A DNA stretch of 64,000 bases from Trypanosoma brucei. Lineage: Eukaryota. Under the pieces are notes generated by a model, which was given only the letters and a program-made list of their open reading frames with translations, ran no database searches and was not told where the DNA came from. Both the position numbers and the translations under genes were made by a program. This document shows positions 5,568-29,764 of the stretch, piece by piece; position 1 is the stretch's first letter, and each line of letters opens with the position of its first letter. Location: positions 448,001-512,000 of the forward strand of contig CM000208.1 in NCBI GenBank assembly GCA_000002445.1, read 5' to 3'.

Positions 5568-5800
5568 ACTGTGCATCAGGGCGGCGTGATTGCTACCTTC
5601 TCCCCTCCCAACTTATGAATTGGTGTCGAGTGAATACTTAACTTTTCTATGTGTTACTGAAAGAGTAATCTGTCCTGATGTCACCCCCCCCCCCAAACAC
5701 ACACACATACACACACTACCCGGACGGGAAGTGGATACTCTGATATATAGTTATATCTTATTTTTCTCTTTTCGGGCGCATTTCTTTTTGGAAAGGGTCA

Positions 5801-6739
5801 ATGAACTTGGCAAATTCTCATTGTATCGGACCCGACAGTCCTGATGCTGGTCTGGCACCTTCCTGTAAAGGGTGCCCAAATGCTTCTCTATGTGCTTCTG
5901 CACCCAAAGGTCCCGATCCTGATATTGAACTTATCAGGCAACGGTTGTCTGGTGTTAAGCGGAAGGTGCTAATCGTTAGTGGGAAAGGAGGTGTGGGGAA
6001 GAGTACGCTTACTAAAGAGTTGGCTTTTGCCATTGGGAAGAGAGGACTCAACGTTGCTGTTGTTGATCTCGACATATGCGGGCCCTCTATTCCACGTTTG
6101 ACGGGCGCTCGGGGGGAAAATGCACACTACAGTGCCACTGGTATTGAACCGGTGATGATCGATGAAACGGTGACTATGATGTCCATGCACTACTTTCTTG
6201 AAAATAAGAATGAAGCTGTGCTCTTTCGCGGGCCCAGGAAGAATGGCGCTGTCAAAATGTTTCTGAAGGATGTAATTTGGAACGATGTTGATGTGATGCT
6301 GATTGACACACCCCCTGGGACGTCAGATGAGCACATCACTACTGCATCTCTTCTTCAGCAATGTGGTGGCGTCAGTGGCGCTGTTTTAGTAACCACACCC
6401 CAGATGGTTGCAGAGGCTGACGTAAGACGGGAGGTAAACTTCTGTCAAAAGGCAAAATTGAACATAATGGGTATTGTTGAAAATATGAGCGGTTTCGTGT
6501 GCCCTAACTGTGGTAGTGGCTCGTTTATATTTCCACGTACAAATACGCGGGGTGCTGGAAAGCGCTTAAGCGAGGAGTTTGGAATTCCTCTTTGGGGAGA
6601 AATACCCCTTGATCCAAAGCTGATGAGCTCGTGCGAGGAAGGTACCCCTCTTGCAGAGTCTGTCGACCAAAATAATCCAACGCTTGATGTTTTGAACTCA
6701 ATTTCGAGGAAACTCATTGAAAGTTTAGCGATGGAGTAG
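5801..6739 (+). CDS. NBP35: NBP35/Mrp-type P-loop ATPase, cytosolic Fe-S cluster assembly factor
   Basis: N-terminal C-x13-C-x2-C-x5-C ferredoxin-like motif (SHCIGPDSPDAGLAPSCKGCPNASLCAS), deviant Walker A SGKGGVGKST and C-terminal CPNC bridging-cluster motif. It aligns well with human NUBP1. Confidence 0.85.
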   Translation: MNLANSHCIGPDSPDAGLAPSCKGCPNASLCASAPKGPDPDIELIRQRLSGVKRKVLIVSGKGGVGKSTLTKELAFAIGKRGLNVAVVDLDICGPSIPRLTGARGENAHYSATGIEPVMIDETVTMMSMHYFLENKNEAVLFRGPRKNGAVKMFLKDVIWNDVDVMLIDTPPGTSDEHITTASLLQQCGGVSGAVLVTTPQMVAEADVRREVNFCQKAKLNIMGIVENMSGFVCPNCGSGSFIFPRTNTRGAGKRLSEEFGIPLWGEIPLDPKLMSSCEEGTPLAESVDQNNPTLDVLNSISRKLIESLAME

Positions 6740-6849
6740 TAGTATCAATATGCGGTTTTAACGTTGTTTCTGCAGTATTTTTGGAGAAGTTTTTTGCGCA
6801 GCAGCAATGTTGTGAATTTTTATCGCAGTCTCTTAATGATGTTGTTTAA

Positions 6850-8445
6850 ATGATATCTCCTGATTTTTTTTTTGGCGGTGTGTCCCTTTTATCTGATTCT
6901 ATTGAAGTTCGCTCTCGTTGGTCTTGTTTGAAGTACTTGGGTGATGCTATTATAGTGATGTCGGTAGTGGCGTCCTTCGTTGCAGAGTGTGCACGGAGCG
7001 GTCGCTGGGTACGGGGCGTTATGGCTCTTCATAGCAGTATCGGTGCAGAAGACGCGAGCATCGGGAGGGCGCGTCTCCGGTTAGCGTCCAGCATCTTAAG
7101 GAAACATTGGTGCGCTGCTTTGCCGCTAATAAGGCCTGAAGATGTGCAATATGTGGATGACCTTGCCCGATTGGTGCACGAATGCTCGATGTGCGCCGAG
7201 GTGCCCGCGGATGTATTTGACAGTGCAGTTGTTAAGTTGCTAACGCGCGCTCGAGGAAAAGATGAAATACAAACCCAATTATTTCTGTCCGCAACCAAGT
7301 GGACAAATTGGCATCAAGCGACTCGATTCTTCACCATGTTGGATACGCCAGGGGCATTGTGCAGAGATTCGCTGATGATACTGTTGATGAACGCTCTTGG
7401 ATCTGGGAGCATATCCAAACAACACACCATCGGTCTTATCCTTAGCCAGTTAAAACTCACCAACAGTCGCCATATTGGCAACGGAAGGCGTGATCACCTA
7501 TCGTCAATCTCTGCTGCTAATGCTGCGCACTCGTATATAGAGAAGGGTACTGATTTAGTGAAGGTTTGGAGTGCGTTGCGGGAAAGGGATGGAATTAGCA
7601 CGAAGTTAGTAATGAGTCTCGCAAGAGCGGCAATACAAGGTGAGCGATGTTCATGGAAGTTACCCCTATCCATCCACGGCAGGAATAGGGTCGTTGGTGA
7701 TTCTACTGAGGTGCTATCAAAGATGATTGCTATTTGCTGTCCGCAACACTGGAGAGCTGCTCTCGGTCATTTTGTCGTAGAAGGGAGGCTTGCCTTATGG
7801 CTGGCCTCCCGCTACAGTTGGGAAGCCGGGTTAGTTGTATCGAAGTTGGTTTCGATACCGCGGCGTGAAAAGTACGACATACTTTGCCGGTGCGCAATTC
7901 CTTTACCCCAGTTGAGGGGCATTGCAACGGTGGCCGGGGCAAAAATAAGGTTGAGCAACGCATCCAAAAGAAGCATTGCGGTGCGTCTGGCCAGTGGTTA
8001 CACAACTGAGGAGCTACAGCTGAGTGCTTTTGCTAAAGTATGTCAGAAAAATGGGGATTGGGAAACGTCCCTTTCCCTCTTCCATCGAGTCGCTACCGAG
8101 GAATTCCAACAACGTGCGGTTCAGTGTATCCTTGCACACTGCCCCGGTTTCGGGGTGAAAAAGTTACTTCAGCTGGTGAATGAGCATTGCCCGGCTAACA
8201 CTTGGACGACGTCAATGCTAGTGAAGCACTCCGATGACTGGGTGGAGGCCCTGTACGTTCTCCGCCATGTGATGGCTCGCGGGACGCGTTGCAATCCACA
8301 AATACTGAGCGCTTTTATGGACGTGCAGCCACCGGTTGACGTTGTATCGACTGTGGTCCGTAACACCACATTTGCGGGGCGCAGTGAGGGTATTATGAGA
8401 CGCCTTGAGATCCTAGAGATAAGTGGAAAGAGCCCGCAGCATTAA
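6850..8445 (+). CDS. Hypothetical protein (531 aa from first ATG); the true start could be a downstream ATG (6958 or 7021)
   Basis: Long ORF on the cluster strand with ATG at 6850. No recognisable motifs. Confidence 0.5.
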   Translation: MISPDFFFGGVSLLSDSIEVRSRWSCLKYLGDAIIVMSVVASFVAECARSGRWVRGVMALHSSIGAEDASIGRARLRLASSILRKHWCAALPLIRPEDVQYVDDLARLVHECSMCAEVPADVFDSAVVKLLTRARGKDEIQTQLFLSATKWTNWHQATRFFTMLDTPGALCRDSLMILLMNALGSGSISKQHTIGLILSQLKLTNSRHIGNGRRDHLSSISAANAAHSYIEKGTDLVKVWSALRERDGISTKLVMSLARAAIQGERCSWKLPLSIHGRNRVVGDSTEVLSKMIAICCPQHWRAALGHFVVEGRLALWLASRYSWEAGLVVSKLVSIPRREKYDILCRCAIPLPQLRGIATVAGAKIRLSNASKRSIAVRLASGYTTEELQLSAFAKVCQKNGDWETSLSLFHRVATEEFQQRAVQCILAHCPGFGVKKLLQLVNEHCPANTWTTSMLVKHSDDWVEALYVLRHVMARGTRCNPQILSAFMDVQPPVDVVSTVVRNTTFAGRSEGIMRRLEILEISGKSPQH

Positions 8446-8922
8446 TCTTCTCTGGGGAATCGACGCATATATATCCGTATTCGACAAATTCCTAACACGT
8501 GAAAACAAATGCGCGTTGACTTGGTGCTCTGCGCTGTGGACGTGTGCACATTGGGGGGGGGGGCGAGGGAAGCGACGACGATAAGGAGGGAGTGCTCACG
8601 TCCCGTTGCAGTAGCCACTTGACAACGTTTCAGGAGGAATTCCCTCCCCCCGAAACGGGGGTTTCTTTGATACACTGCACATTGGACTTCTGTTGGATCC
8701 TATTCGTTGCCGATATTCTAAATATCCGTTTGTCGCTACGACAAAGGGGAGTACGGAATGTGATGTGCCCACTGTAGGTGGCTTCGTTTCGAAGTTGGCT
8801 GGCGCCACTATAGCGTGTGGATGAACGGTGCCTTTCGTTCTTTGTTTTTGTGTGCTTGCAGCTACTGACTCCCACCGTATCGATTGTAACAAATACTAAC
8901 AAGTGATGTGATAGAATTAGCA

Positions 8923-10500
8923 ATGCGCTGCATCGCCCACATCGATATGGATTGCTTTTATGCTCAGGTGGAAGCTGTGCGGCTCGGCGTCGACTGCCGA
9001 ACGGAACCTTATGTTCTTTCTCAGTGGGGCAACCTTATAGCAGTAAATTATCCTGCACGCAAGTTTGGAATTGGTCGGTTTGACACTGTGACTGATGCAC
9101 TGGAGAAGTGCCCTCACGTAAAAATTTCACACGTCGCCACGTATGCCGCTGGAGAGGTGGAGTATCGCTACCACGAAAATCCCAGTAAGCAAACGCACAA
9201 GGTAGCCCTAGAGCCTTACAGAGAAGCTAGTCGGAAAATATTCCGCATTTTAGATAGTTTTGATGGAGTGGAAGTTGAAAAGGGTAGCGTGGACGAGGCA
9301 TTCCTCGACGTAACGAAAGCTGCTCATATGAAGCAAGGTGAGATGGGATTGCTCTCATCGCAGGGTGAGCTCCGCCTGGAGGACGTTGCAGATCCAACTA
9401 CAATTGTGATTCCAAGCCGTCAGGCCGAAATCGCTGCGTGGCTCAAAGAACACGGAAGGGAGTTTAGTGATGTGTTTGACGTAACGCTACATCCCCAACC
9501 AACGGCGGAGAACATGTCACTTCTCGCTGCAGCCTCTCGTGTTGTGTGGACCATACGGCAGAAAATCTATGATGAGCTTCGTTATGATTGCTCCGCAGGT
9601 ATTGCACACAACAAACTTCTTGCTAAGAGCATCTCAGCGCGCCATAAACCGAACCAGCAGACGCTCTTGTTTCCTGATTGTGTTGCCTCTGTTATGTGGG
9701 ATTTACCCTTCAAGAGCATTCGTGGATTTGGTGGGAAATTCGGCGAGGTTGTTCGACTTGCATGTGGTGGGAAGGAAACGTGTCGTGAGGCTTGGCTACA
9801 TTCCCTATGCGCGATGAGCAAGTTTTTTGAAAGTGTAGGAGATGCAGAATATGCATACCGTCGCTTACGTGGCTATGATGAGGGGAAAATAAGAGAGCGA
9901 TCTATTTCAAAGAGTTTGATGGCATCAAAGGCGTTTAGCCCACCGTCGTCCACTGCAAACGGTGTGCAAAAGTGGGTCACGGTTCTGAGCGGCGAACTTT
10001 CCGCCCGCTACGAGGATTTCTGCAATACATACGGAGTAAAGGGACACTCATTCAATGTGAAGCTAGGCAACCGCGGCCTTGACCAGCCGAGCAGTGTTGC
10101 AAACAAAACCTTCCCGCTGCCGGAACTTGTGACGCCGCAAACACTCGTGTCCGCTGCAATGCAGTGCGTCACGGCAATTATGGCCAATCGACCGGGTGTA
10201 GTGGTAAATGCGGTAATGCTCACCATTGGATCATTTAAGAAGCAGGAAAGCGACGAAAGCGGGGTCCGAAGCCAGCAAACGACCCTTAGGGATTTTTTTA
10301 AATTGAAGAACCCCGGGAAACGTGAGCGAAATCATACTGATGAGGCCATGGTAATTACCCTATCGTCCTGCCCCTCCTCCCCCGTATCACGTGAATCTTT
10401 GAAGAGCACCCCAGGAACAAGGGTGGTGTTTGATGTGGAGGACGATGGAGACGATGAGGAGGGGGAAAGCGGAGAGAAGGATGTACACATCATTGACTGA
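8923..10500 (+). CDS. Y-family translesion DNA polymerase eta
   Basis: Track ORF begins at GTG 8908; first ATG is 8923 (MRCIAHIDMDCFYAQVE). Motifs IAHIDMDCFYAQVE, SVDEAFLDVT and GIAHNKLLAKS match the Pol eta palm/fingers. Acidic C-terminal tail. Confidence 0.85.
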   Translation: MRCIAHIDMDCFYAQVEAVRLGVDCRTEPYVLSQWGNLIAVNYPARKFGIGRFDTVTDALEKCPHVKISHVATYAAGEVEYRYHENPSKQTHKVALEPYREASRKIFRILDSFDGVEVEKGSVDEAFLDVTKAAHMKQGEMGLLSSQGELRLEDVADPTTIVIPSRQAEIAAWLKEHGREFSDVFDVTLHPQPTAENMSLLAAASRVVWTIRQKIYDELRYDCSAGIAHNKLLAKSISARHKPNQQTLLFPDCVASVMWDLPFKSIRGFGGKFGEVVRLACGGKETCREAWLHSLCAMSKFFESVGDAEYAYRRLRGYDEGKIRERSISKSLMASKAFSPPSSTANGVQKWVTVLSGELSARYEDFCNTYGVKGHSFNVKLGNRGLDQPSSVANKTFPLPELVTPQTLVSAAMQCVTAIMANRPGVVVNAVMLTIGSFKKQESDESGVRSQQTTLRDFFKLKNPGKRERNHTDEAMVITLSSCPSSPVSRESLKSTPGTRVVFDVEDDGDDEEGESGEKDVHIID

Positions 10501-21093: not shown

Positions 21094-23438
21094 TCACTGC
21101 ATCGGTTAGTACACGCCAGGAGTAATATATATCGAGCAAGGATGCGTAAAGATAGCAGACTCGGAGGTGATGAATATACGGCGCACCGCTTGTGGGGTAC
21201 GCTTCTGTAAACAAATGAATGCCACCACGTACGCGACGGGCGCAACAGATATGATACACACAAGTTGAGGGAACTAAAACCCTTTTGAGGGGATACATAT
21301 CGTACAGTACCTTGCATGCGTGCGACTCTGTAGAGCCATCGGCTACGACTACTGACGTACCTGATCGCGTAGACTCATACTATCGACGATTCAAGAAACA
21401 ACTCCTCTTTCCATGACTCGTGTAAAAACAAAGTAGCCACAACTTTGTCCCTCCACCTGGTGGAAGGGATGCAGTTCACATACTGCGTACAACCCTAACC
21501 CTTTACTGATAGTTAATGCGTAGCAACAACCGCTGAGAAAAGCACAATAAGGAATTCATCACATCTCACACTGTCACATTCCATTGAATCTGAACCCCTC
21601 ATTGAGATTACACCCCTCCCCCATTTAGCACCCAACACATATCATCTAGCGCTAATGCGTCTGCTGTACTTCCAATAACAAGTAAAGCTCCACACATCTA
21701 GTGAAGTTGCATAGTGCAAACACCCTCCCATGCTCAGTGTAATCTTTCGTTAGGTCATCGCCCCTTTTGGTGTGCATACGAATCCTACCTAACTGCACCT
21801 TCACATCTTATTTTTCACCCCATCCTACTCAACCGTAGTACACAACGAACATACCCCTTGGTCATTTACCATATCTATTAATTATAAAAATAATTCAAAT
21901 AATTGTTGTCACTCTGCGTCCAGCACAGCTCATCCAGTTCGGATATGAAGGTGCAAACGAGTGGAATCGCGAAACCGCACGTGCTGACAGAGCAATAGGA
22001 ATTTCTCCACCCAGAGGCGTCATGAGCGTAAGCCTGGTGTATGATCCTTTCAGAGTGTATTTTGGAGCCGAGGAATTTATTTGAGCGATATCAATAATCA
22101 CTTCCCCCAGCCAGCCGGTTCAAATTACATCAACACTCAACTAATATACGTATAAACACGGATATCTCACGGATTATTAGTTAAGTATGTCGCAGTTCCA
22201 TTGCAGTTGGAGCATGAGGAAAATTAAGTGAGTATCCAATAATGGACCAAATCATACACAACATGAGCACCCTACATCCACTCCCTCTGAGCCTAACCTT
22301 ACAACCACATAGCAACCCGCCGCCCGGGGGGGGGCATCAGCAGAGAAAGTCTGCGATGTTCATATATATATATATATTTCCATTTTCGCCCTCTTTTAGG
22401 CGAAACTTTGTAATACAAACATCGTTCAACACGAGGATGACGAAAATGTTATTGAGTTATACTCAACAATTTATTGCGGCTCAAACACGGCTTGAGCGAA
22501 CATATCAGCCGTTAGATTGCGATAGAACCTGCATGCGCTAACTTCTCACCAAGCAGACAAAGAAAATGCGGAAGCACAACGACAGGTTTACAAGGGGTTG
22601 GATATATAATACAAAATATCGGATGATATCACCGCTGCCTTAGACGACCTCTATCCACAGTCCCGCCCAGTAAACATTAATAACTTTACACACACGCCAC
22701 ATTGTCGACGATACCATTAAAAAGGTAACGGAAAGACTACCGAAGGACAACACACTTCGAGAGATCCCCGCCTTTCAAAGGAAAGAATGCAATATATTCT
22801 CCCGTCACAGCGTCAACTTGCACAGCGCAATAAAACCTTACACAACAACCGCTTCTAAACTCATCTATAATCACTCTTCATTTACATTCGATCATTAGCG
22901 CAACACCAGCGATGGCAGTGACAACAAAACAAAAAAAATACTCAAATTTAAACATGAACCATTCAATATCGGAGGACAAGTTACAAATTGCAGATACAGA
23001 TTTTTAAAGTTAAAACATACATAAGTACTATTCAATGAGGTTTCAAATTATCTAAATCATCAATACATTGGAAATGACTACGCAGCGACACGTATTCATT
23101 CAAAAACAGCATCCGAAACTCACCTAAAAAAACAAAAGAAAAAAGAAAAAATAGGTAGCACCGCCGCTCCACCTACAAGTAAATCAGCTACTGAAGGTGG
23201 GAAAGTCCCTCCAAATGTGAGTTTAACCGCCACTGTGAGGTAATAAAGCAACGCCAGAAAACACACTTTATTCACTTTCCCTGATATGTAACAAAAAAGG
23301 GCCCTAGAAATAATAAACAGCTGAGAACCTCCGAGCAACCTACCAACGAGCCGATTGCTGTGCAAAGCTAGTGGAATTACGCTTCTCTGCATTTTCCAGC
23401 AACGATGTTTCAGACCTAACATATCCCACTTCGAAGGT

Positions 23439-24287
23439 ACCACCGCACAAAAAACATACCGTATCCGATGCGGCACAGCCGCCTGCACACGAAAAATAGA
23501 AGTACAAACAAACTTTTGGTCACCACACGTCTGCTCCTTTGGAAGCAGCAGCGCTCAGGGTACACCAAGCTACTTCACAACACCCGTTCATACAAGTAGC
23601 AGAACGAAATAAATGAGTAGCACCACGGTGCAGGACGTGAAGCAACGCAACCTAACCCACACAACGAAGTTTTGTCGCGGCAAGCGTCCCATCACGAGAA
23701 TAATAAAAGAGGAGTCCAATTCACCAGCAACTGGACGGACGCCCCATACCATGCCCAGCTCTTCCTTCCACCGCCCCACTCGTTGTGGTAACGACCCAAA
23801 CGATGGAGCCCTTTCCGACGGGGAAGTTCCTGCGGCACAACAGCCACACCCCGTAGAGCTCGCCAAGCTCCACACACACCAACACAGGGGTCCTGAAACC
23901 ACGAGATCTAACGGGGAGGGGCACAGCTCCCAACCTTCTTTCCTGAGTGGGAATAAAGCCTTAGTTAGCCTATCCAAAACAGGCGGTCAATCAGATTAAT
24001 GTTCGCGTGGGCCCCAAGCAAATCATGCCAAAAAAACTATGTGACCTCCGAATTGTTTACTTCGGAGCCCCCCCCCCCACCTCCGTTTTGTTTACCACCA
24101 GCTCTGACCAAATTCCTCCTCCCAAACGAGTGGCACCCCCTACTTCGGCACACCTGAGCGGTCCGCGACTGGTGTATTCCCCAAACCAGGCAAGGCTTCG
24201 GGGCCCGCTCAACCACGCGGTAGGGCACAGAGTCGTCGGGAGGGAGAAGTCATTCATGCTCGCCTTACAGAAGCACGTATTGGTCCT
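23439..24287. repeat. Left arm of a large near-perfect inverted repeat (~849 bp)
   Basis: Reverse complement of 25447-26300. Boundaries placed by direct comparison at both ends. Only a handful of substitutions and a 1-nt homopolymer length difference (~99% identity). ORFs on both strands of the arm are mirror duplicates and probably non-coding. Confidence 0.9.
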
Positions 24288-25446
24288 TTTGTTCACCTAT
24301 TTATGAGATGAGGCAGCTGTGGAGTTTGGAACGCCAGAACCTGGAGGAGGTGATTCGCAGCGTGGGAAAAGAGCTGCCGTTTTTTTTTTTTTTACCGTCT
24401 GTGTGAGACCGCCACCCTAACCACTGTTGACGCGATCTGACGTTGTGCCGGTGTTAAAGCACTGCCTTTTGGAGGCTATGCGGTGTGCTTTCCGACGGCC
24501 GAGTTGAGCGTCGACTGCAGTCACCATCAGCAGAGCATTTAAGTGAAAATGAACCGAAGGGACGGGAAGGTAGTTACTACCGTTTGTTTCTGGCGGTGGA
24601 ACTCGTACACACCACTGCCTTTAGATGCCACACACACACACAGGAACGTTAAGATAACCGCCAGAAATAGTCTACAATTAAAGCCTTTCGAGCCATTCCC
24701 TCATCGCACACACGCTTCGTTTTTCTTAGTGTAGGAGCCTCCCTCTGCCCCCTTGATTTCTTCTGTTTGAAAACATGCACCGGGCATCCTTCTTGCTGAA
24801 AACCACTTGGCTTCAATACAAATCAAATTCCTATACGGAGTCACAACCGAAGTTAGGACCCTCATGCAAGAGAAGGACCACACGTGTCCCTCTGCTAGTT
24901 CACTCCCGCGTGATAAACAGAAGATGCCCAAGAGGAACCGGACCCGCACGAATTGCAACATCGTCCGAACTAAGCCCTTTTCGCGGCAACCTACTATTGA
25001 GAAGTGCTTTGTAGCTGTTCGCTCCGGTTCGATCGCATTACCTCAGTTCTCAAAAGAACTTCAGCCCTGCACGATGATTTCGCTGTCGAGTGCCCCCAAC
25101 ACGTTCGTGGACAATGACGGCCTGGTGGAATAAGTACATTTTTTTTTGACTTTTCGTCACCTAGAGGGGGAAAGGATAGTATTTCAATGTTGAATCGACG
25201 GGCCCTCGCAGGTATTCCAAATCCCCTATTTTGCACTGCGGTGGCTAACCGTCCTTCATTATGGCAACTGCAGAGCAGTTCTCAAAGGCACCGTCTTCCA
25301 CGCCCATACTGGTTTGAATGAGGAGGCCTGTGGCGAACCGCACCATCTTTTATCGTTCGTTTTTACTCTTCAATATGCGTCCAACACAGGAAGTTAAGTA
25401 ACATCATCGTATTGCCATGCCCCCCAAAATAATAATAAGGGGTTAT

Positions 25447-26300
25447 TAAAAGGACCAATACGTGCTTCTGTAAGGCGAGCATGAATGACTTCCCCCTCCC
25501 GACGACTCTGTGCCCTACCGCGTGGTTGAGCGGGCCCCGAAGCCTTGCCTGGTTTGGGGAATACACCAGTCGCGGACCGCTCAGGTGTGCCGAAGTAGGG
25601 GGTGCCACTCGTTTGGGAGGAGGAATTTGGTCAGAGCTGGTGGTAAACAAAACGGAGGTGGGGGGGGGGGGCTCCGAAGTAAACAATTCGGAGGTCGCAT
25701 AGTTTTTTTGGCATGATTTGCTTGGGGCCCACGCGAACATTAATCTGATTGACCGCCTGTTTTGGATAGACTAACTAAGGCTTTATTCCCACTCAGGAAA
25801 GAAGGTTGGGAGCTGTGCCCCTCCCCGTTAGATCTCGTGGTTTCAGGACCCCTGTGTTGGTGTGTGTGGAGCTTGGCGAGCTCTACGGGGTGTGGCTGTT
25901 GTGCCGCAGGAACTTCCCCGTCGGAAAGGGCTCCATCGTTTGGGTCGTTACCACAACGAGTGGGGCGATGGAAGGAAGAGCTGGGCATGGTATGGGGCGT
26001 CCGTCCAGTTGCTGGTGAATTGGACTCCTCTTTTATTATTCTCGTGATGGGACGCTTGCCGCGACAAAACTTCGTTGTGTGGGTTAAGTTGCGTTGCTTC
26101 ACGTCCTGCACCGTGGTGCTACTCATTTATTTCGTTCTGCTACTTGTATGAACGGGTGTTGTGAGGTAGCTTGGTGTACCTTGAGCGCTGCTGCTTCCAA
26201 AGGAGCAGACGTGTGGTGACCAAAAGTTTGTTTGTACTTCTATTTTTCGTGTGCAGGCGGCTGTGCCGCATCGGATACGGTATGTTTTTTGTGCGGTGGT
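25447..26300. repeat. Right arm of the inverted repeat (~854 bp); spacer 24288-25446 (~1.16 kb)
   Basis: See left arm. The duplicated ORF translations (e.g. the 128-aa MSSTTVQDVKQ... on + at 23613 and on - at 25740) confirm the reverse-complement relationship. Confidence 0.9.
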
Positions 26301-27124
26301 GAGTGGTCGTGCCAGGGTGTTGCTGGGAGCAATGTTGCATGTCTTGCGGTGGTGTTCGCCTGGCCTGATGTTGTCATACTCCTTTATTTTGTTATGACAT
26401 GTAACGCTTGTTGTGATGTTGGCATTTATTTTTGTAAGTGGCTGGTGTGTGAAAGGCGCCACTTTCAATAAGTCCCCCCTTTCTGATGTGTTACATTCCC
26501 TTGTTTGTATTTCTGCCGACCGGTTATAACATTGGTATGCAGGGTTACACACAGGTTGTTTCTTTGGCTTGGTGAATGTATGTTGATGTCGAAAAACCGA
26601 TGTTTACAAGAGTGGTAACCCTTTTTTCCCGGTGGCCTAGACGACACTAGCTCACTGTAGTATATATATGCGTGTGTGCGCATGTGTGGTGATATTGAAA
26701 CTCTTCTTGATGTTATCAAGTGCGTAGGTGTGGGACGCATGGACACTCGCACACATCCTTTTCAGCCTGTATTTACTCAAACTAAAATGTTTTTTAGTAG
26801 AATTATATTTTTAATGTTGTGGTGCTAAGGAAAAAAAAAAAGGATGTACTGGTGTTGTATGCAGGTGCTGCTAAACGCATGGTCGGGACAGTTGTTACTT
26901 TGCTGATTTTCTTGCTGTGCTGTATGGGCACTTGCTTGGTGTAGGCAGGTGTGCAGGCCATGGATGCTGTTGTCTTATGTGCTATATTTCTCTCCTAAGT
27001 CAGTTTTTTCTCCAGTACTTTGTTACATTAGGGAAGGGGCTAGTGGATTTGCGCGCAAACTTTATTTTCCCTTCATTTTCTTGAAGAGATCAATAAACGG
27101 TGTAACACACAGTAGTGGCTTGAA

Positions 27125-28150
27125 ATGTCCTTCTCCAGTGACGAGAAGAAACCCACGCGGACGCGTGGTGGTGGAGCTCTTACGGATCCTCACGCTGTAA
27201 AGTTGCACGGTAATGATTTTTCCTTGGATGAAAAATTGGGTGGACTGGCCCCCGAGGAGCGCAAAGTGGTCGCAGAATACATTGAAAAATGCGAAGAAAC
27301 CCTTCTCCAACTTAGCAAGAGAGGCTGCAATACTCCTATCATTCCTTTTAACAGTGAGAACCACTCCTGGGACTCTCTTTACAAGGTTAATAAGAGGCAT
27401 TTCCCTCTTAAAAATTACATTATTCTAGCATTTCCTCTGCTAAAGTCAATATGTTGTGGGCCAAAGCGTGAAAGCAAGTACATTGTTGAATGCGGTTGCG
27501 GGACAGGGAGTACACTGCTACCAATAATGAATCAGTTCAAAGACGGAGTTCACTTCATTGGATTTGATGTATCCACCGCTGCTGTATCAGCGTTGTTGGA
27601 ACACCCGATTGCCAGTGATTTTAGTGCAGAGGGGCGACTGACCGTTTTCCCCTATGACTTGTGCTACGGCCGTGTCAGTGCGTCTGAGGATTGTAGGAGG
27701 ACTAAGTTCAAAACGGAATGTGGTACCTTGAAAACTACTTTGTTGGAAAAAGTGCCTGGTTGCTCTAAAGGTGTGGACGCAGCTATCTTAGTTTTCGTCC
27801 TTTCGTCGTTGCCTACCATTGAGTGCATGCTCTATGCGTTGACGGAGATTAAGAGCATACTCCATAATGATGGTATTCTTTTGTTTCGTGATTACGCTGT
27901 TCCCGATCATAATCTCTTTCGATTCGTCCGGCAACAAAACAAAAAACATAACGATTTGAGTTTTTGTAAAGGCGATGGAACCTTGCAAATGTTTTTTGAG
28001 CTGAACTTCACAAGAAAGTTGTTTGCGTTAGCGGGGTTGAAGGAGGTCGAGGGTCACGGATTGCAATACCATTGTAACCGCATTGTTAATAGAAAGAACA
28101 GTAAAAGAATGGATAAGATATTCATAAATGGCAGCTTTTGTTTATCTTAA
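27125..28150 (+). CDS. Class I SAM-dependent methyltransferase of the METTL2/METTL6/Trm140 family (candidate tRNA m3C methyltransferase)
   Basis: ATG confirmed. SAM motif I IVECGCGTGSTLLPIM closely matches the METTL2/6 ILEVGCG(A/V)GN(S/T)VFPIL signature. Length and layout fit. Confidence 0.7.
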   Translation: MSFSSDEKKPTRTRGGGALTDPHAVKLHGNDFSLDEKLGGLAPEERKVVAEYIEKCEETLLQLSKRGCNTPIIPFNSENHSWDSLYKVNKRHFPLKNYIILAFPLLKSICCGPKRESKYIVECGCGTGSTLLPIMNQFKDGVHFIGFDVSTAAVSALLEHPIASDFSAEGRLTVFPYDLCYGRVSASEDCRRTKFKTECGTLKTTLLEKVPGCSKGVDAAILVFVLSSLPTIECMLYALTEIKSILHNDGILLFRDYAVPDHNLFRFVRQQNKKHNDLSFCKGDGTLQMFFELNFTRKLFALAGLKEVEGHGLQYHCNRIVNRKNSKRMDKIFINGSFCLS

Positions 28151-28861: not shown

Positions 28862-29764
28862 ATGGTTACACCTCAGTTTGTGCAACAGAACTCTTCTCTC
28901 GCCTCAGGTTTTTGGGATTCTTTTGCCCTATACTTTTCCCTAATTTCTCTTGATGTGGTGGTGGAGGGAATGATGAAGAGAACAATATTACAAAGATGCA
29001 TACAAAATAAGTCGCTCGAAATAGCACGTATTTCTCGGAGTGATATTAATAGTCGAGCTCATTTGCCTTTTAACTTCGATGTATGTTACGAGCTGGGCTC
29101 ACGTGAGTTTACATTATTCTCAAGTGTGGGTAGCACATCAGTTTTGGTCTTTTGTAACGTTTCTAGTCGGCGGCTGCGTTCGGTGAAGGGAGGACAGGGT
29201 GAGACTGAATTCCCTCCGAAAAGGTTAAATGTGAAGAGGCGTCGGCAAAGCGGTAGCGCGGATCGCTCTCCTGTGGTATTTTCTGCATTTGTGTCGATGC
29301 CCACGTCAGGACTCACAATTGAAGCATTGTGTTGTAGCTCACTTGGGCTTCTGGTTGTTGATGGCGTCTCATTTCACCAGGGGCCGCTGACGGAATCAAT
29401 GATACCTCAAGACGCACATCCGGGCCCCGAAGGTCATTATCAAGGACCGCTGCTGAATCAGAGGTCGTTGGCGGAGATGGTAGTCAACACTCGAGGCTGC
29501 ATAACTTCTGTTGATCCTTTTCGGCAACAAGAATCATTTTTTGATGGGCATGTGAATCCATGGAATGCGCGCTCCTTGAGGTTTGGTCACGTGCCTGTAC
29601 ACACCGCAAAGCCGGGGTTTTCGGACGCTCTTTGCCACTTTCTTGAGGTGTTTGGGGTTAATGATGAGCTAGCCTTCTTTGTAGAGGACTTTGCACACTT
29701 GGTACATAGGGAAGAGGAAACAGCTTGGACTAACGTCCTGAAAACTATGATGGGAGGCAGGTGA
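28862..29764 (+). CDS. Hypothetical protein (300 aa)
   Basis: ATG-initiated ORF on the cluster strand with polypyrimidine tracts and AG upstream (28745-28860). No motifs. Confidence 0.4.
   Translation: MVTPQFVQQNSSLASGFWDSFALYFSLISLDVVVEGMMKRTILQRCIQNKSLEIARISRSDINSRAHLPFNFDVCYELGSREFTLFSSVGSTSVLVFCNVSSRRLRSVKGGQGETEFPPKRLNVKRRRQSGSADRSPVVFSAFVSMPTSGLTIEALCCSSLGLLVVDGVSFHQGPLTESMIPQDAHPGPEGHYQGPLLNQRSLAEMVVNTRGCITSVDPFRQQESFFDGHVNPWNARSLRFGHVPVHTAKPGFSDALCHFLEVFGVNDELAFFVEDFAHLVHREEETAWTNVLKTMMGGR

What the first reader, a model, noticed from the sequence alone, without database searches (positions are those of the whole stretch)
23439..26300. Near-perfect ~850-bp inverted repeat (1.16-kb spacer) at the centre of an 8-kb ORF-free region
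The two arms (23439-24287 and 25447-26300) are ~99% identical reverse complements. This is far more conserved than the surrounding non-coding DNA. That implies a very recent duplication, ongoing gene conversion, or selection. It is not a recognisable retroelement (no RT/endonuclease ORF) and neither arm holds a convincing protein gene. If transcribed through, it would fold into a ~850-bp dsRNA stem, an obvious siRNA source in an RNAi-competent trypanosome. As DNA it could extrude as a cruciform. It sits at the compositional symmetry centre of the region (next finding). A foldback-type non-autonomous element with long terminal inverted repeats is an alternative reading.
Basis: seen in the sequence. 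Interest (0 to 1): 0.8.

Follow-up and report, generated by a model that had tools for sequence, protein, structure and literature searches.

The report
Known siRNA-producing inverted repeat (IR6)
The 850-bp inverted repeat is real, but it is the already published Trypanosoma brucei chromosome-10 repeat "IR6", shown in 2012 to make small interfering RNAs, so it confirms known biology rather than revealing something new.

Summary
The arms are 23439-24290 and 25448-26300, with 7 mismatches and 1 homopolymer indel over 853 columns, and the spacer is 1157 nt. The boundaries are sharp and the 64-kb window holds no other copy.

The window is T. brucei chromosome 10, and probably strain TREU927. The repeat matches Tb927_10_IR6 of Tschudi et al. 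2012 (853 bp, 8 mismatches). That study found 4,387 Argonaute-bound small RNA reads from IR6, falling to 6% without the nuclear Dicer DCL2.

The repeat lies in a divergent strand-switch region. On one side is a short minus-strand unit (Tb10.70.6110-6130). On the other is the plus-strand unit whose first recognisable gene here is a Trm140-type methyltransferase. Read outward, each arm is GT-rich, like the coding strand of a transcription start region.

- **Not supported:** Pfam (six frames), Rfam and tRNA searches found nothing, there is no target-site duplication, and a single arm has no unusual fold.
- **New here, concerted evolution:** the arms are identical within two other assemblies, which nevertheless differ from each other in both arms.
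- **New here, restricted distribution:** the syntenic region of T. cruzi, T. theileri and T. vivax has no such repeat.
- **New here, spacer orientation:** it differs between assemblies. This is either a real flip or an assembly ambiguity.

Novelty: already known. Interest: low.

The parts
23439..24290 (.). Left arm of the inverted repeat (852 nt). It is AC-rich on the + strand, so GT-rich when read leftward on the - strand.
   Evidence: boundaries; G+T 0.40 on the + strand.
24291..25447 (.). Spacer (1157 nt), compositionally neutral. The skew sign change lies inside it. Its orientation is opposite in two other assemblies.
   Evidence: boundaries; G+T 0.49; skew change; orientation.
25448..26300 (.). 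Right arm of the inverted repeat (853 nt), GT-rich on the + strand.
   Evidence: boundaries; G+T 0.60. A single arm shows no unusual local fold (z = -1.29).
24068..24078 (+). C11 homopolymer in the left arm. Its mirror is G12 at 25660-25671 in the right arm. It is a G-run on each outward-reading strand, and its length varies between arms and strains.
25660..25671 (+). G12 homopolymer in the right arm, the mirror of the C11 run.
19577..27124 (.). Gap without credible genes that holds the repeat. Left of about 24.9 kb the composition is minus-sense; right of it, plus-sense. No Pfam, Rfam or tRNA signal.
18229..19023 (-). Tb10.70.6130, a 'T. brucei spp.-specific protein' of 264 aa. It is the last ORF of the short minus-strand unit that starts at the repeat.
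   Evidence: Identical to TREU927 EAN77605.1. No homologue outside the T. brucei group. Unit map: Kolev 2010 Table S14.
27125..28150 (+). Trm140/METTL6-type methyltransferase (inferred to be Tb927.10.1800, TbTrm140). It is the first recognisable gene of the plus-strand unit that starts at the repeat.
   Evidence: family and orthologues; gene name in the literature; the assignment to this ORF is an inference from the chromosome.

Best explanation
This is Tb927_10_IR6, one of the seven long inverted repeats catalogued in the T. brucei genome.

**Where it is.** It is a lineage-specific inverted duplication of about 850 bp inside a divergent strand-switch region. RNA polymerase II starts a short minus-strand unit (Tb10.70.6110 to 6130) to the left, and to the right the long plus-strand unit whose first recognisable gene here is the Trm140-type methyltransferase.

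**How it works.**
- Inferred: initiation in such regions is broad and about one-fifth antisense, so some transcripts cross both arms and fold back into an ~850-bp hairpin.
- Published: the locus yields small RNAs bound to Argonaute AGO1. They depend mainly on the nuclear Dicer DCL2 and partly on DCL1.
- Shown here at the level of assemblies: the arms stay near-identical through arm-to-arm gene conversion or crossover, not through selection on their sequence.
- Inferred: no other copy of the arm was found, so these siRNAs most likely have no target elsewhere. They are probably a by-product that at most trims read-through or antisense RNA of their own locus.
For: **Identity with IR6.**
- The window lies on the ~4-Mb chromosome 10 of the T. 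brucei group, about 0.42-0.45 Mb from the end in related assemblies.
- Its 264-aa ORF is identical to TREU927 Tb10.70.6130.
- Arm length and differences (853 columns, 7 mismatches + 1 indel) equal the published '853 bp, 99% (8)'. IR6 is the only chromosome-10 repeat in that genome-wide survey, listed at 467-478 kb.

**siRNA production.** 4,387 AGO1-bound reads in wild type, 38% of that in dcl1-/- and 6% in dcl2-/-.

**Hairpin potential.** 848 of 852 arm bases pair.

**Divergent start region.**
- Kolev 2010 Table S14 lists both flanking units as 'Divergent'.
- Skew changes sign in the spacer.
- G+T on the + strand runs 0.43, 0.40, 0.49, 0.60, 0.615 across left flank, left arm, spacer, right arm and right flank.
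- GT-rich coding strands and a 4:1 sense-to-antisense initiation ratio are published properties of T. brucei start regions.
- The methyltransferase also heads a divergent unit in T. cruzi and T. theileri.

**Concerted evolution.**
- The arms within L001, and within L004, differ only in homopolymer length.
- L001 and L004 differ from each other by 3 substitutions and 2 indels, and each of these is present in both arms of its genome.
- Between-strain divergence of arms (0.2-1.2%) equals that of flanks and spacer (0.25-1.3%).
Against: - No small-RNA, RNA-seq or chromatin data could be mapped here. siRNA production rests on one paper, whose detailed figure is for IR3, not IR6.
- The exact TREU927 coordinates of the window could not be checked, because TREU927 contigs were not retrievable.
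- Divergent initiation from the spacer alone would give the same sense RNA from both arms, not a hairpin. The read-through or antisense transcript is assumed, not shown.
- Arms that are identical within an assembly can partly result from reads of both arms being pooled during assembly.
- 'No target elsewhere' rests on a 64-kb window and protein databases, not on a whole-genome search.
Confidence: 0.85

Rival explanations
1. Mirrored promoter. The selected function of the arms is to act as two copies of one GT-rich, G-run-containing RNA polymerase II start element, one facing each divergent unit. Hairpin siRNAs would then be a side effect of that symmetry.
For: - Each arm is 60% G+T when read outward and carries a G11-G12 run on that strand.
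- GT-rich 10-mers on the coding strand are concentrated at the 5' ends of T. brucei start regions. Synthetic GT-rich elements drive directional transcription and H2A.Z deposition.
- Both flanking units are annotated as starting here.
Against: - The unique flanks outside the arms are just as GT-rich (0.57 and 0.615), so the arms are not compositionally special.
- Arm sequence diverges between strains at the same rate as neighbouring non-coding DNA.
- The orthologous start region in T. cruzi and T. theileri works without any such repeat.
- This reading is compatible with the best explanation rather than a replacement for it.
Confidence: 0.25
2. Foldback-type non-autonomous mobile element with long terminal inverted repeats, inserted in the strand-switch region.
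For: Long, near-perfect terminal inverted repeats around a unique middle, with sharp outer boundaries. The element is lineage-specific.
Against: - No target-site duplication: the outer flanks read ...GAAGGT and GAGTGG....
- No second copy in 64 kb.
- The arm ORF has a single database match, at this same locus in T. b. gambiense.
- No transposase, reverse transcriptase or endonuclease signal in six frames.
- The published self-alignment of each chromosome reported it only as one pair.
Confidence: 0.04
3. Assembly artefact: a collapsed or mis-joined repeat, with no true palindrome in the chromosome.
For: The short-read T. equiperdum OVI assembly breaks exactly 32 nt into each arm. Spacer orientation is inconsistent between assemblies.
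Against: The same arm-spacer-arm structure, with the same boundaries, occurs in three independently produced chromosome-scale assemblies: the window, DAL972 and GCA_003543875.1. The OVI contig ends are what a true inverted repeat produces in a de Bruijn graph. Tschudi et al. confirmed two other repeats of this class (IR3 and IR4) by PCR, though not IR6.
Confidence: 0.02
4. DNA-level element. The palindrome acts as a cruciform or hairpin in DNA, for example as a replication origin, fragile site or recombination hotspot, and RNA is irrelevant.
For: Perfect arms could pair in single-stranded DNA. The window sequence switches haplotype at the repeat, and spacer orientation differs between assemblies. 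Both would fit a recombination-prone site.
Against: On general knowledge, not tested here, cruciform extrusion and replication-hairpin formation fall off steeply with spacer length, and 1157 nt is very long. The haplotype switch and the orientation difference can both be assembly effects in a heterozygous diploid. Published data already show an RNA output.
Confidence: 0.05

Closest known systems
Tb927_10_IR6, one of the 7 long inverted repeats of T. brucei TREU927 (Tschudi et al. 2012, BMC Genomics 13:427, PMC3447711)
   Same: Same chromosome and neighbourhood, same repeat length (853), same number of arm differences (8), and the same organism group. It is a published source of AGO1-bound, DCL2-dependent small RNAs.
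   Different: Nothing detectable: this is judged to be the same locus. Three things are added here. The arms evolve in concert across T. brucei subspecies. The repeat is absent from the syntenic region of T. cruzi, T. theileri and T. vivax. Spacer orientation differs between assemblies.
Hairpin-RNA (hpRNA) endo-siRNA loci of Drosophila and inverted-repeat siRNA loci of plants such as Arabidopsis IR71 (recalled from memory; Okamura et al. 2008 appears in the reference list seen)
   Same: A long genomic inverted repeat is transcribed into a fold-back dsRNA, diced, and loaded into an Argonaute.
   Different: Those loci often have defined mRNA targets elsewhere. No target or second copy was found for this one. 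Here the repeat lies inside a bidirectional polymerase II start region, and processing depends on a nuclear Dicer.
Large palindromes kept identical by arm-to-arm gene conversion, such as the human Y-chromosome palindromes and the chloroplast inverted repeat with flip-flop isomers (recalled from memory)
   Same: Arms are nearly identical within a genome but change together between lineages. The unique spacer may be able to invert.
   Different: This one is much smaller (0.85-kb arms) and its arms carry no genes. The inversion is not yet separated from assembly ambiguity.
Foldback (FB-type) transposable elements
   Same: Long terminal inverted repeats around a unique middle, with no coding capacity.
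   Different: No target-site duplication, a single copy, and arms with no internal tandem-repeat structure.

Membership tests
T. brucei long inverted-repeat siRNA loci (Tschudi 2012), specifically Tb927_10_IR6 | Inverted repeat of at least ~400 bp with about 99-100% arm identity | tested here: met
   852/853-nt arms, 7 mismatches + 1 indel.
T. brucei long inverted-repeat siRNA loci (Tschudi 2012), specifically Tb927_10_IR6 | Chromosome 10 at about 467-478 kb in TREU927; repeat length 853; 8 mismatches | tested here: met
   The length and the 8 differences match exactly. Neighbouring proteins are identical to TREU927 chromosome-10 entries. The orthologous repeat lies at ~422 kb in DAL972 and ~446 kb in GCA_003543875.1. 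Absolute TREU927 coordinates could not be read.
T. brucei long inverted-repeat siRNA loci (Tschudi 2012), specifically Tb927_10_IR6 | 22-25-nt AGO1-bound small RNAs that depend on Dicer (DCL2) | not testable with these tools
   Published only: 4,387 reads, 6% of wild type in dcl2-/-. No read data were available here.
Foldback transposon | Target-site duplication flanking the terminal inverted repeats | tested here: not met
   The outer flanks GAAGGT| and |GAGTGG share no direct repeat.
Foldback transposon | Multiple dispersed copies in the genome | tested here: inconclusive
   None in the 64-kb window. The arm ORF is found only at this locus. A whole-genome nucleotide search was not possible.
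Trypanosome retroposons (ingi/RIME, SLACS, SIDER/DIRE) | Reverse transcriptase or endonuclease coding remnants | tested here: not met
   Six-frame Pfam scan of 19400-27124 returned no family at E <= 0.1. The minus frames of the right flank 26301-27124 were left out.
RNA polymerase II transcription start region of T. brucei (divergent strand-switch region) | Lies between two units transcribed away from each other | tested here: met
   Kolev 2010 Table S14 lists Tb10.70.6110->6130 (-) and Tb10.70.6040->5340 (+), both 'Divergent'. The window ORF is Tb10.70.6130. The skew changes sign in the spacer.
RNA polymerase II transcription start region of T. brucei (divergent strand-switch region) | GT-rich coding strand with G or T runs at the 5' end of each start region | tested here: met
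   The arms are 60% G+T read outward and carry a G11-G12 run. The criterion is from Wedel 2017.
RNA polymerase II transcription start region of T. brucei (divergent strand-switch region) | H2A.Z, H2B.V and H4K10ac enrichment, and 5'-triphosphate transcripts | not testable with these tools
   No ChIP-seq or primary-transcript data could be mapped.
Structured non-coding RNA gene (snoRNA cluster, tRNA or other Rfam family) | Match to a covariance model, or a stable local fold | tested here: not met
   Rfam at gathering score over the whole window, and at E <= 1 over 19000-27200: no matches. No tRNA. Single-arm fold z = -1.29.

The most novel reading that the evidence does not exclude
The repeat is an active 'flip-flop' module. 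Reciprocal exchange between the arms inverts the 1.16-kb core of a bidirectional polymerase II start region, so both spacer orientations coexist among, or even within, T. brucei strains. The same exchange keeps the arms identical.

The evidence is threefold:
- Spacer orientation is opposite in different assemblies.
- The SNP phase in the window becomes a simple two-haplotype mosaic only after the segment between the two arm exchange points is flipped back.
- The arms evolve in concert.

A link between this recombination and the hairpin siRNAs, as Tschudi et al. speculated, would be a further step.
Probability: 0.3. Interest if true: 0.5.

Novelty: already known. Interest (0 to 1): 0.22.

Why it matters
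The locus itself adds little. Both the repeat and its siRNA output were described in 2012. Two things from this check remain useful.

First, it shows that a sequence-only reading can recover a real, experimentally validated RNAi source.

Second, it sharpens an open question from the original paper, namely why such palindromes stay perfect. The arms change together between subspecies while drifting at the neutral rate. This points to arm-to-arm recombination rather than selection on the sequence.

If the spacer really does flip, this would be a small, tractable model for recombination driven by inverted repeats at a trypanosome transcription start region.

Tried and rejected
- **Rfam and tRNA.** Rfam at gathering score on the whole window, Rfam at E <= 1 on 19-27.2 kb, and a tRNA scan all returned nothing.
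- **Pfam.** Nothing on individual arm and spacer ORFs, or on six-frame translations of 19400-27124. Two first attempts failed because the tool rejects translations that contain stop codons.
- **Homologue search with the 128-aa arm ORF.** Its only hit is the same locus in T. b. gambiense, annotated 'hypothetical protein, unlikely'. The arm is therefore rejected as coding.
- **Homologue search with the 264-aa minus-strand ORF.** It occurs only in the T. brucei group.
- **Bacterial-type promoter and terminator scan.** At chance level and irrelevant for a trypanosome.
- **Wider or internal symmetry.** No degenerate palindrome beyond the arms, no symmetry inside the spacer, no extra copies in the window.
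- **Sequences I could not retrieve.** The T. congolense syntenic locus and TREU927 contigs.
- **T. equiperdum OVI left arm.** I tried to use it as a further test of concerted evolution, but the contig ends 32 nt into the arm.
- **Other literature.** Siegel 2009 was not held. The RBP33 paper and the 2026 pangenome preprint say nothing about this locus.
- **Explanations rejected.** Recent duplication, retroelement, foldback transposon, structured RNA gene and assembly artefact. Reasons are in the rival explanations and the full report.
Full report
**1.

A repeat search of 19-31 kb finds a single large inverted repeat, split in two only by a 1-nt indel. A gapped alignment gives these parts:
- left arm 23439-24290;
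- right arm 25448-26300;
- 852 aligned pairs with 7 mismatches;
- one 1-nt indel in a homopolymer (C11 at 24068-24078, G12 at 25660-25671);
- a 1157-nt spacer.

The bases just outside and just inside the arms are not complementary, so the boundaries are sharp. Low-stringency searches find no weaker palindrome beyond the arms, no symmetry within the spacer, and no further copy of arm or spacer in the 64 kb.

No ORF of 150 aa or more lies between 19362 and 27125. GC and AT skew change sign near 24.9 kb. Folded as RNA, the 2862-nt unit pairs 848 of 852 left-arm bases with the right arm. One arm alone folds no better than shuffled sequence (z = -1.29).

**2. Where the window comes from**

The ORF at 27125-28150 is a Trm140/METTL6-type methyltransferase, followed by an RBX1 RING protein. 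An exact protein look-up places them on a 4.10-Mb chromosome of assembly GCA_003543875.1, whose proteins are labelled T. brucei equiperdum. They also lie on chromosome 10 of T. b. gambiense DAL972 and on a T. equiperdum OVI contig. The next closest orthologue is T. congolense at 67% identity.

The minus-strand ORF at 18229-19023 is 100% identical to TREU927 Tb10.70.6130. It differs by 1-2 residues from the gambiense and equiperdum versions. The window is therefore most probably TREU927 chromosome 10. TREU927 contigs themselves were not retrievable.

The literature names Tb927.10.1800 as TbTrm140. Assigning that name to this ORF is an inference from the chromosome.

**3. It is a published locus**

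Tschudi et al. 2012 surveyed the TREU927 genome for long inverted repeats and found seven. The only one on chromosome 10 is Tb927_10_IR6. Its listing gives a display window of 467-478 kb, a repeat length of 853 bp and '99% (8)' mismatches. The window shows exactly this length and these eight differences.

IR6 gave 4,387 AGO1-bound small RNA reads in wild type. That fell to 38% in dcl1-/- and 6% in dcl2-/- cells. The authors also noted that spacers yield small RNAs, and that the near-perfect identity of the arms suggests a constraint at the DNA or RNA hairpin level. A second study cites these repeats as siRNA sources.

**4. Genomic context**

Kolev et al. 2010 (Table S14) list three consecutive chromosome-10 units:
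- Tb10.70.6220 to 6150 (+);
- Tb10.70.6110 to 6130 (-, 'Divergent');
- Tb10.70.6040 to 5340 (+, 'Divergent').

Tb10.70.6130 is the window ORF at 18229-19023. The repeat therefore lies in the divergent strand-switch region between the short minus unit and the long plus unit.

Composition agrees. G+T on the + strand runs as follows:

| Segment | G+T on + strand |
|---|---|
| left flank | 0.43 |
| left arm | 0.40 |
| spacer | 0.49 |
| right arm | 0.60 |
| right flank | 0.615 |

Each arm, read outward, is thus GT-rich and carries a G-run. Wedel et al. 2017 describe these as properties of the coding strand at the 5' end of T. brucei start regions. They also report broad initiation with a 4:1 sense-to-antisense ratio.

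Divergent initiation from the spacer alone would give the same RNA from both arms. The hairpin therefore needs a transcript that crosses both arms. Antisense or upstream initiation in such a broad start region would supply one. This step is inferred, not shown.

**5. What it is not**

- No Rfam family matches at gathering score (whole window) or at E <= 1 (19000-27200), and there is no tRNA.
- No Pfam domain appears in individual ORFs, or in six-frame translations of 19400-27124.
- The 128-aa arm ORF matches only its own copy in T. b. gambiense, annotated 'hypothetical protein, unlikely'.
- There is no target-site duplication.
- The only tandem repeat nearby is a (CA)17 microsatellite.

Retroelement, foldback transposon, structured RNA gene and protein gene are therefore all unsupported.

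**6. Comparison across strains and species**

The repeat has the same boundaries in DAL972 (L004) and GCA_003543875.1 (L001). In the short-read OVI assembly, the contigs break 32 nt into each arm. That is what a true inverted repeat produces in a de Bruijn graph.

Aligning all arms gives a clear pattern:
- Within L001, and within L004, the two arms differ only in homopolymer length.
- L001 and L004 differ from each other by 3 substitutions and 2 indels.
- Every one of those differences is present in both arms of its genome.

Between-strain divergence of the arms (0.2-1.2%) is the same as that of flanks and spacer (0.25-1.3%). So the duplication predates the split of these subspecies. The arms drift at the local neutral rate and are homogenised within each genome. 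That is concerted evolution by gene conversion or crossover, not recent duplication and not purifying selection on the sequence. One caveat applies: assemblers can pool reads from both arms, which inflates within-genome identity.

In T. cruzi and T. theileri the methyltransferase also heads a divergent unit, but the upstream neighbours differ. There is no long inverted repeat and no sequence similarity to the T. brucei gap. The partial T. vivax contig likewise shows none. T. congolense could not be retrieved. Among the species I could examine, the repeat is specific to the T. brucei group and lies at a synteny break.

**7. An unresolved extra: spacer orientation**

The spacer has one orientation in the window and in OVI, and the opposite orientation in DAL972 and GCA_003543875.1.

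In the window, the variable sites fall into two haplotype patterns, labelled X and Y below. X is the OVI-like pattern. Y is the pattern shared with L001 and L004.

| Segment of the window | Pattern |
|---|---|
| left flank and outer left arm | X |
| inner left arm and left half of the spacer | Y |
| right half of the spacer and inner right arm | X |
| outer right arm, right flank and methyltransferase | Y |

Flipping the segment between 24042-24245 and 25493-25697 turns this into a simple X|Y mosaic in the DAL972 orientation. That is the signature of one inversion with its exchange points inside the arms.

It could be biological, as a flip-flop of the kind seen in other palindromes. It could equally have arisen during assembly of a heterozygous diploid, because reads shorter than an arm cannot fix the orientation. 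The OVI orientation is uninformative for the same reason. The IVM-t1 genome announcement, which I believe from memory describes GCA_003543875.1, reports only 7,508 PacBio reads. If that identification is right, long-read support for that assembly's orientation is thin. Only long reads spanning the whole unit can settle the question.

**8. Verdict**

- The feature is real and correctly delimited.
- Its main interpretation is right.
- It is already known as Tb927_10_IR6.
- The best-supported mechanism is a hairpin precursor made by polymerase II read-through in a divergent start region. The precursor is diced mainly by nuclear DCL2 into AGO1-bound siRNAs that have no evident target elsewhere.
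- The arms are kept identical by recombination between them.
- The new pieces are concerted evolution, a restricted distribution among species, and the possible spacer flip. They are incremental.
- Interest is low, and moderate only if the flip-flop proves real.

Noticed in passing
window 24291-25447, compared with L001 7163-8320 and L004 5878-7037: The spacer between the arms has the opposite orientation in T. b. gambiense DAL972 and GCA_003543875.1, compared with the window and T. equiperdum OVI. The SNP phase in the window fits one inversion with exchange points inside the arms (24042-24245 and 25493-25697). A real flip and an assembly ambiguity cannot be told apart here.
   Followed up: partly
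window 19400-28150: The window sequence changes haplotype at the repeat. The left flank, left arm and spacer are 0.74-0.82% from L001. The right arm, right flank and methyltransferase are only 0.19-0.24% from it. This is either a chimeric consensus of a heterozygous diploid or an old recombination breakpoint. It also suggests the 7 arm mismatches may be allelic differences rather than true arm differences.
   Followed up: partly
window 24068-24078 and 25660-25671: A homopolymer (C11 in one arm, G12 in the other) lies inside each arm and is a G-run on the outward-reading strand. Its length varies between arms and between strains, and it accounts for the only indel between the arms.
   Followed up: yes
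window 24628-24641; L005: T. equiperdum OVI carries an expansion of about 40 nt of the short (CA)n tract in the spacer. A separate (CA)17 microsatellite lies at 21054-21088.
   Followed up: no
window 18229-19023 (-): Tb10.70.6130 is a 264-aa 'T. brucei spp.-specific protein' with no homologue outside the group. It contains recurring proline-rich motifs of the type (H)AFPxVEP. It is the last ORF of a very short (~6 kb) minus-strand unit squeezed between a convergent and a divergent strand switch.
   Followed up: partly
window ~17500-18200: The plus-strand unit ending with Tb10.70.6150 converges here on the short minus-strand unit. The convergent-unit table of Tschudi 2012 nevertheless lists no chromosome-10 entry between 281 kb and 610 kb. 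This convergence may never have been examined for siRNAs.
   Followed up: no
L009 (T. theileri) 5582-10001; L010 (T. cruzi) 7490-10001: The methyltransferase-RBX1-MAM33-like gene order downstream is conserved across Trypanosoma. The genes upstream of the divergent switch differ in every species: an acetyltransferase and GP63 in T. theileri, a helicase in T. cruzi, and a plus-strand array in T. brucei. The start of this unit is a synteny breakpoint.
   Followed up: partly
L005 1-32 and L011 1-32 (T. equiperdum OVI contigs): Both OVI contigs end exactly 32 nt inside an arm. This shows how short-read assemblies fragment at this repeat and represent the arm only once.
   Followed up: yes
window 28862-29764 (+): The MAM33-like gene downstream of RBX1 is annotated as 300 aa in DAL972 but 264 aa in the two equiperdum assemblies. 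The start codon choice is inconsistent between annotations.
   Followed up: no
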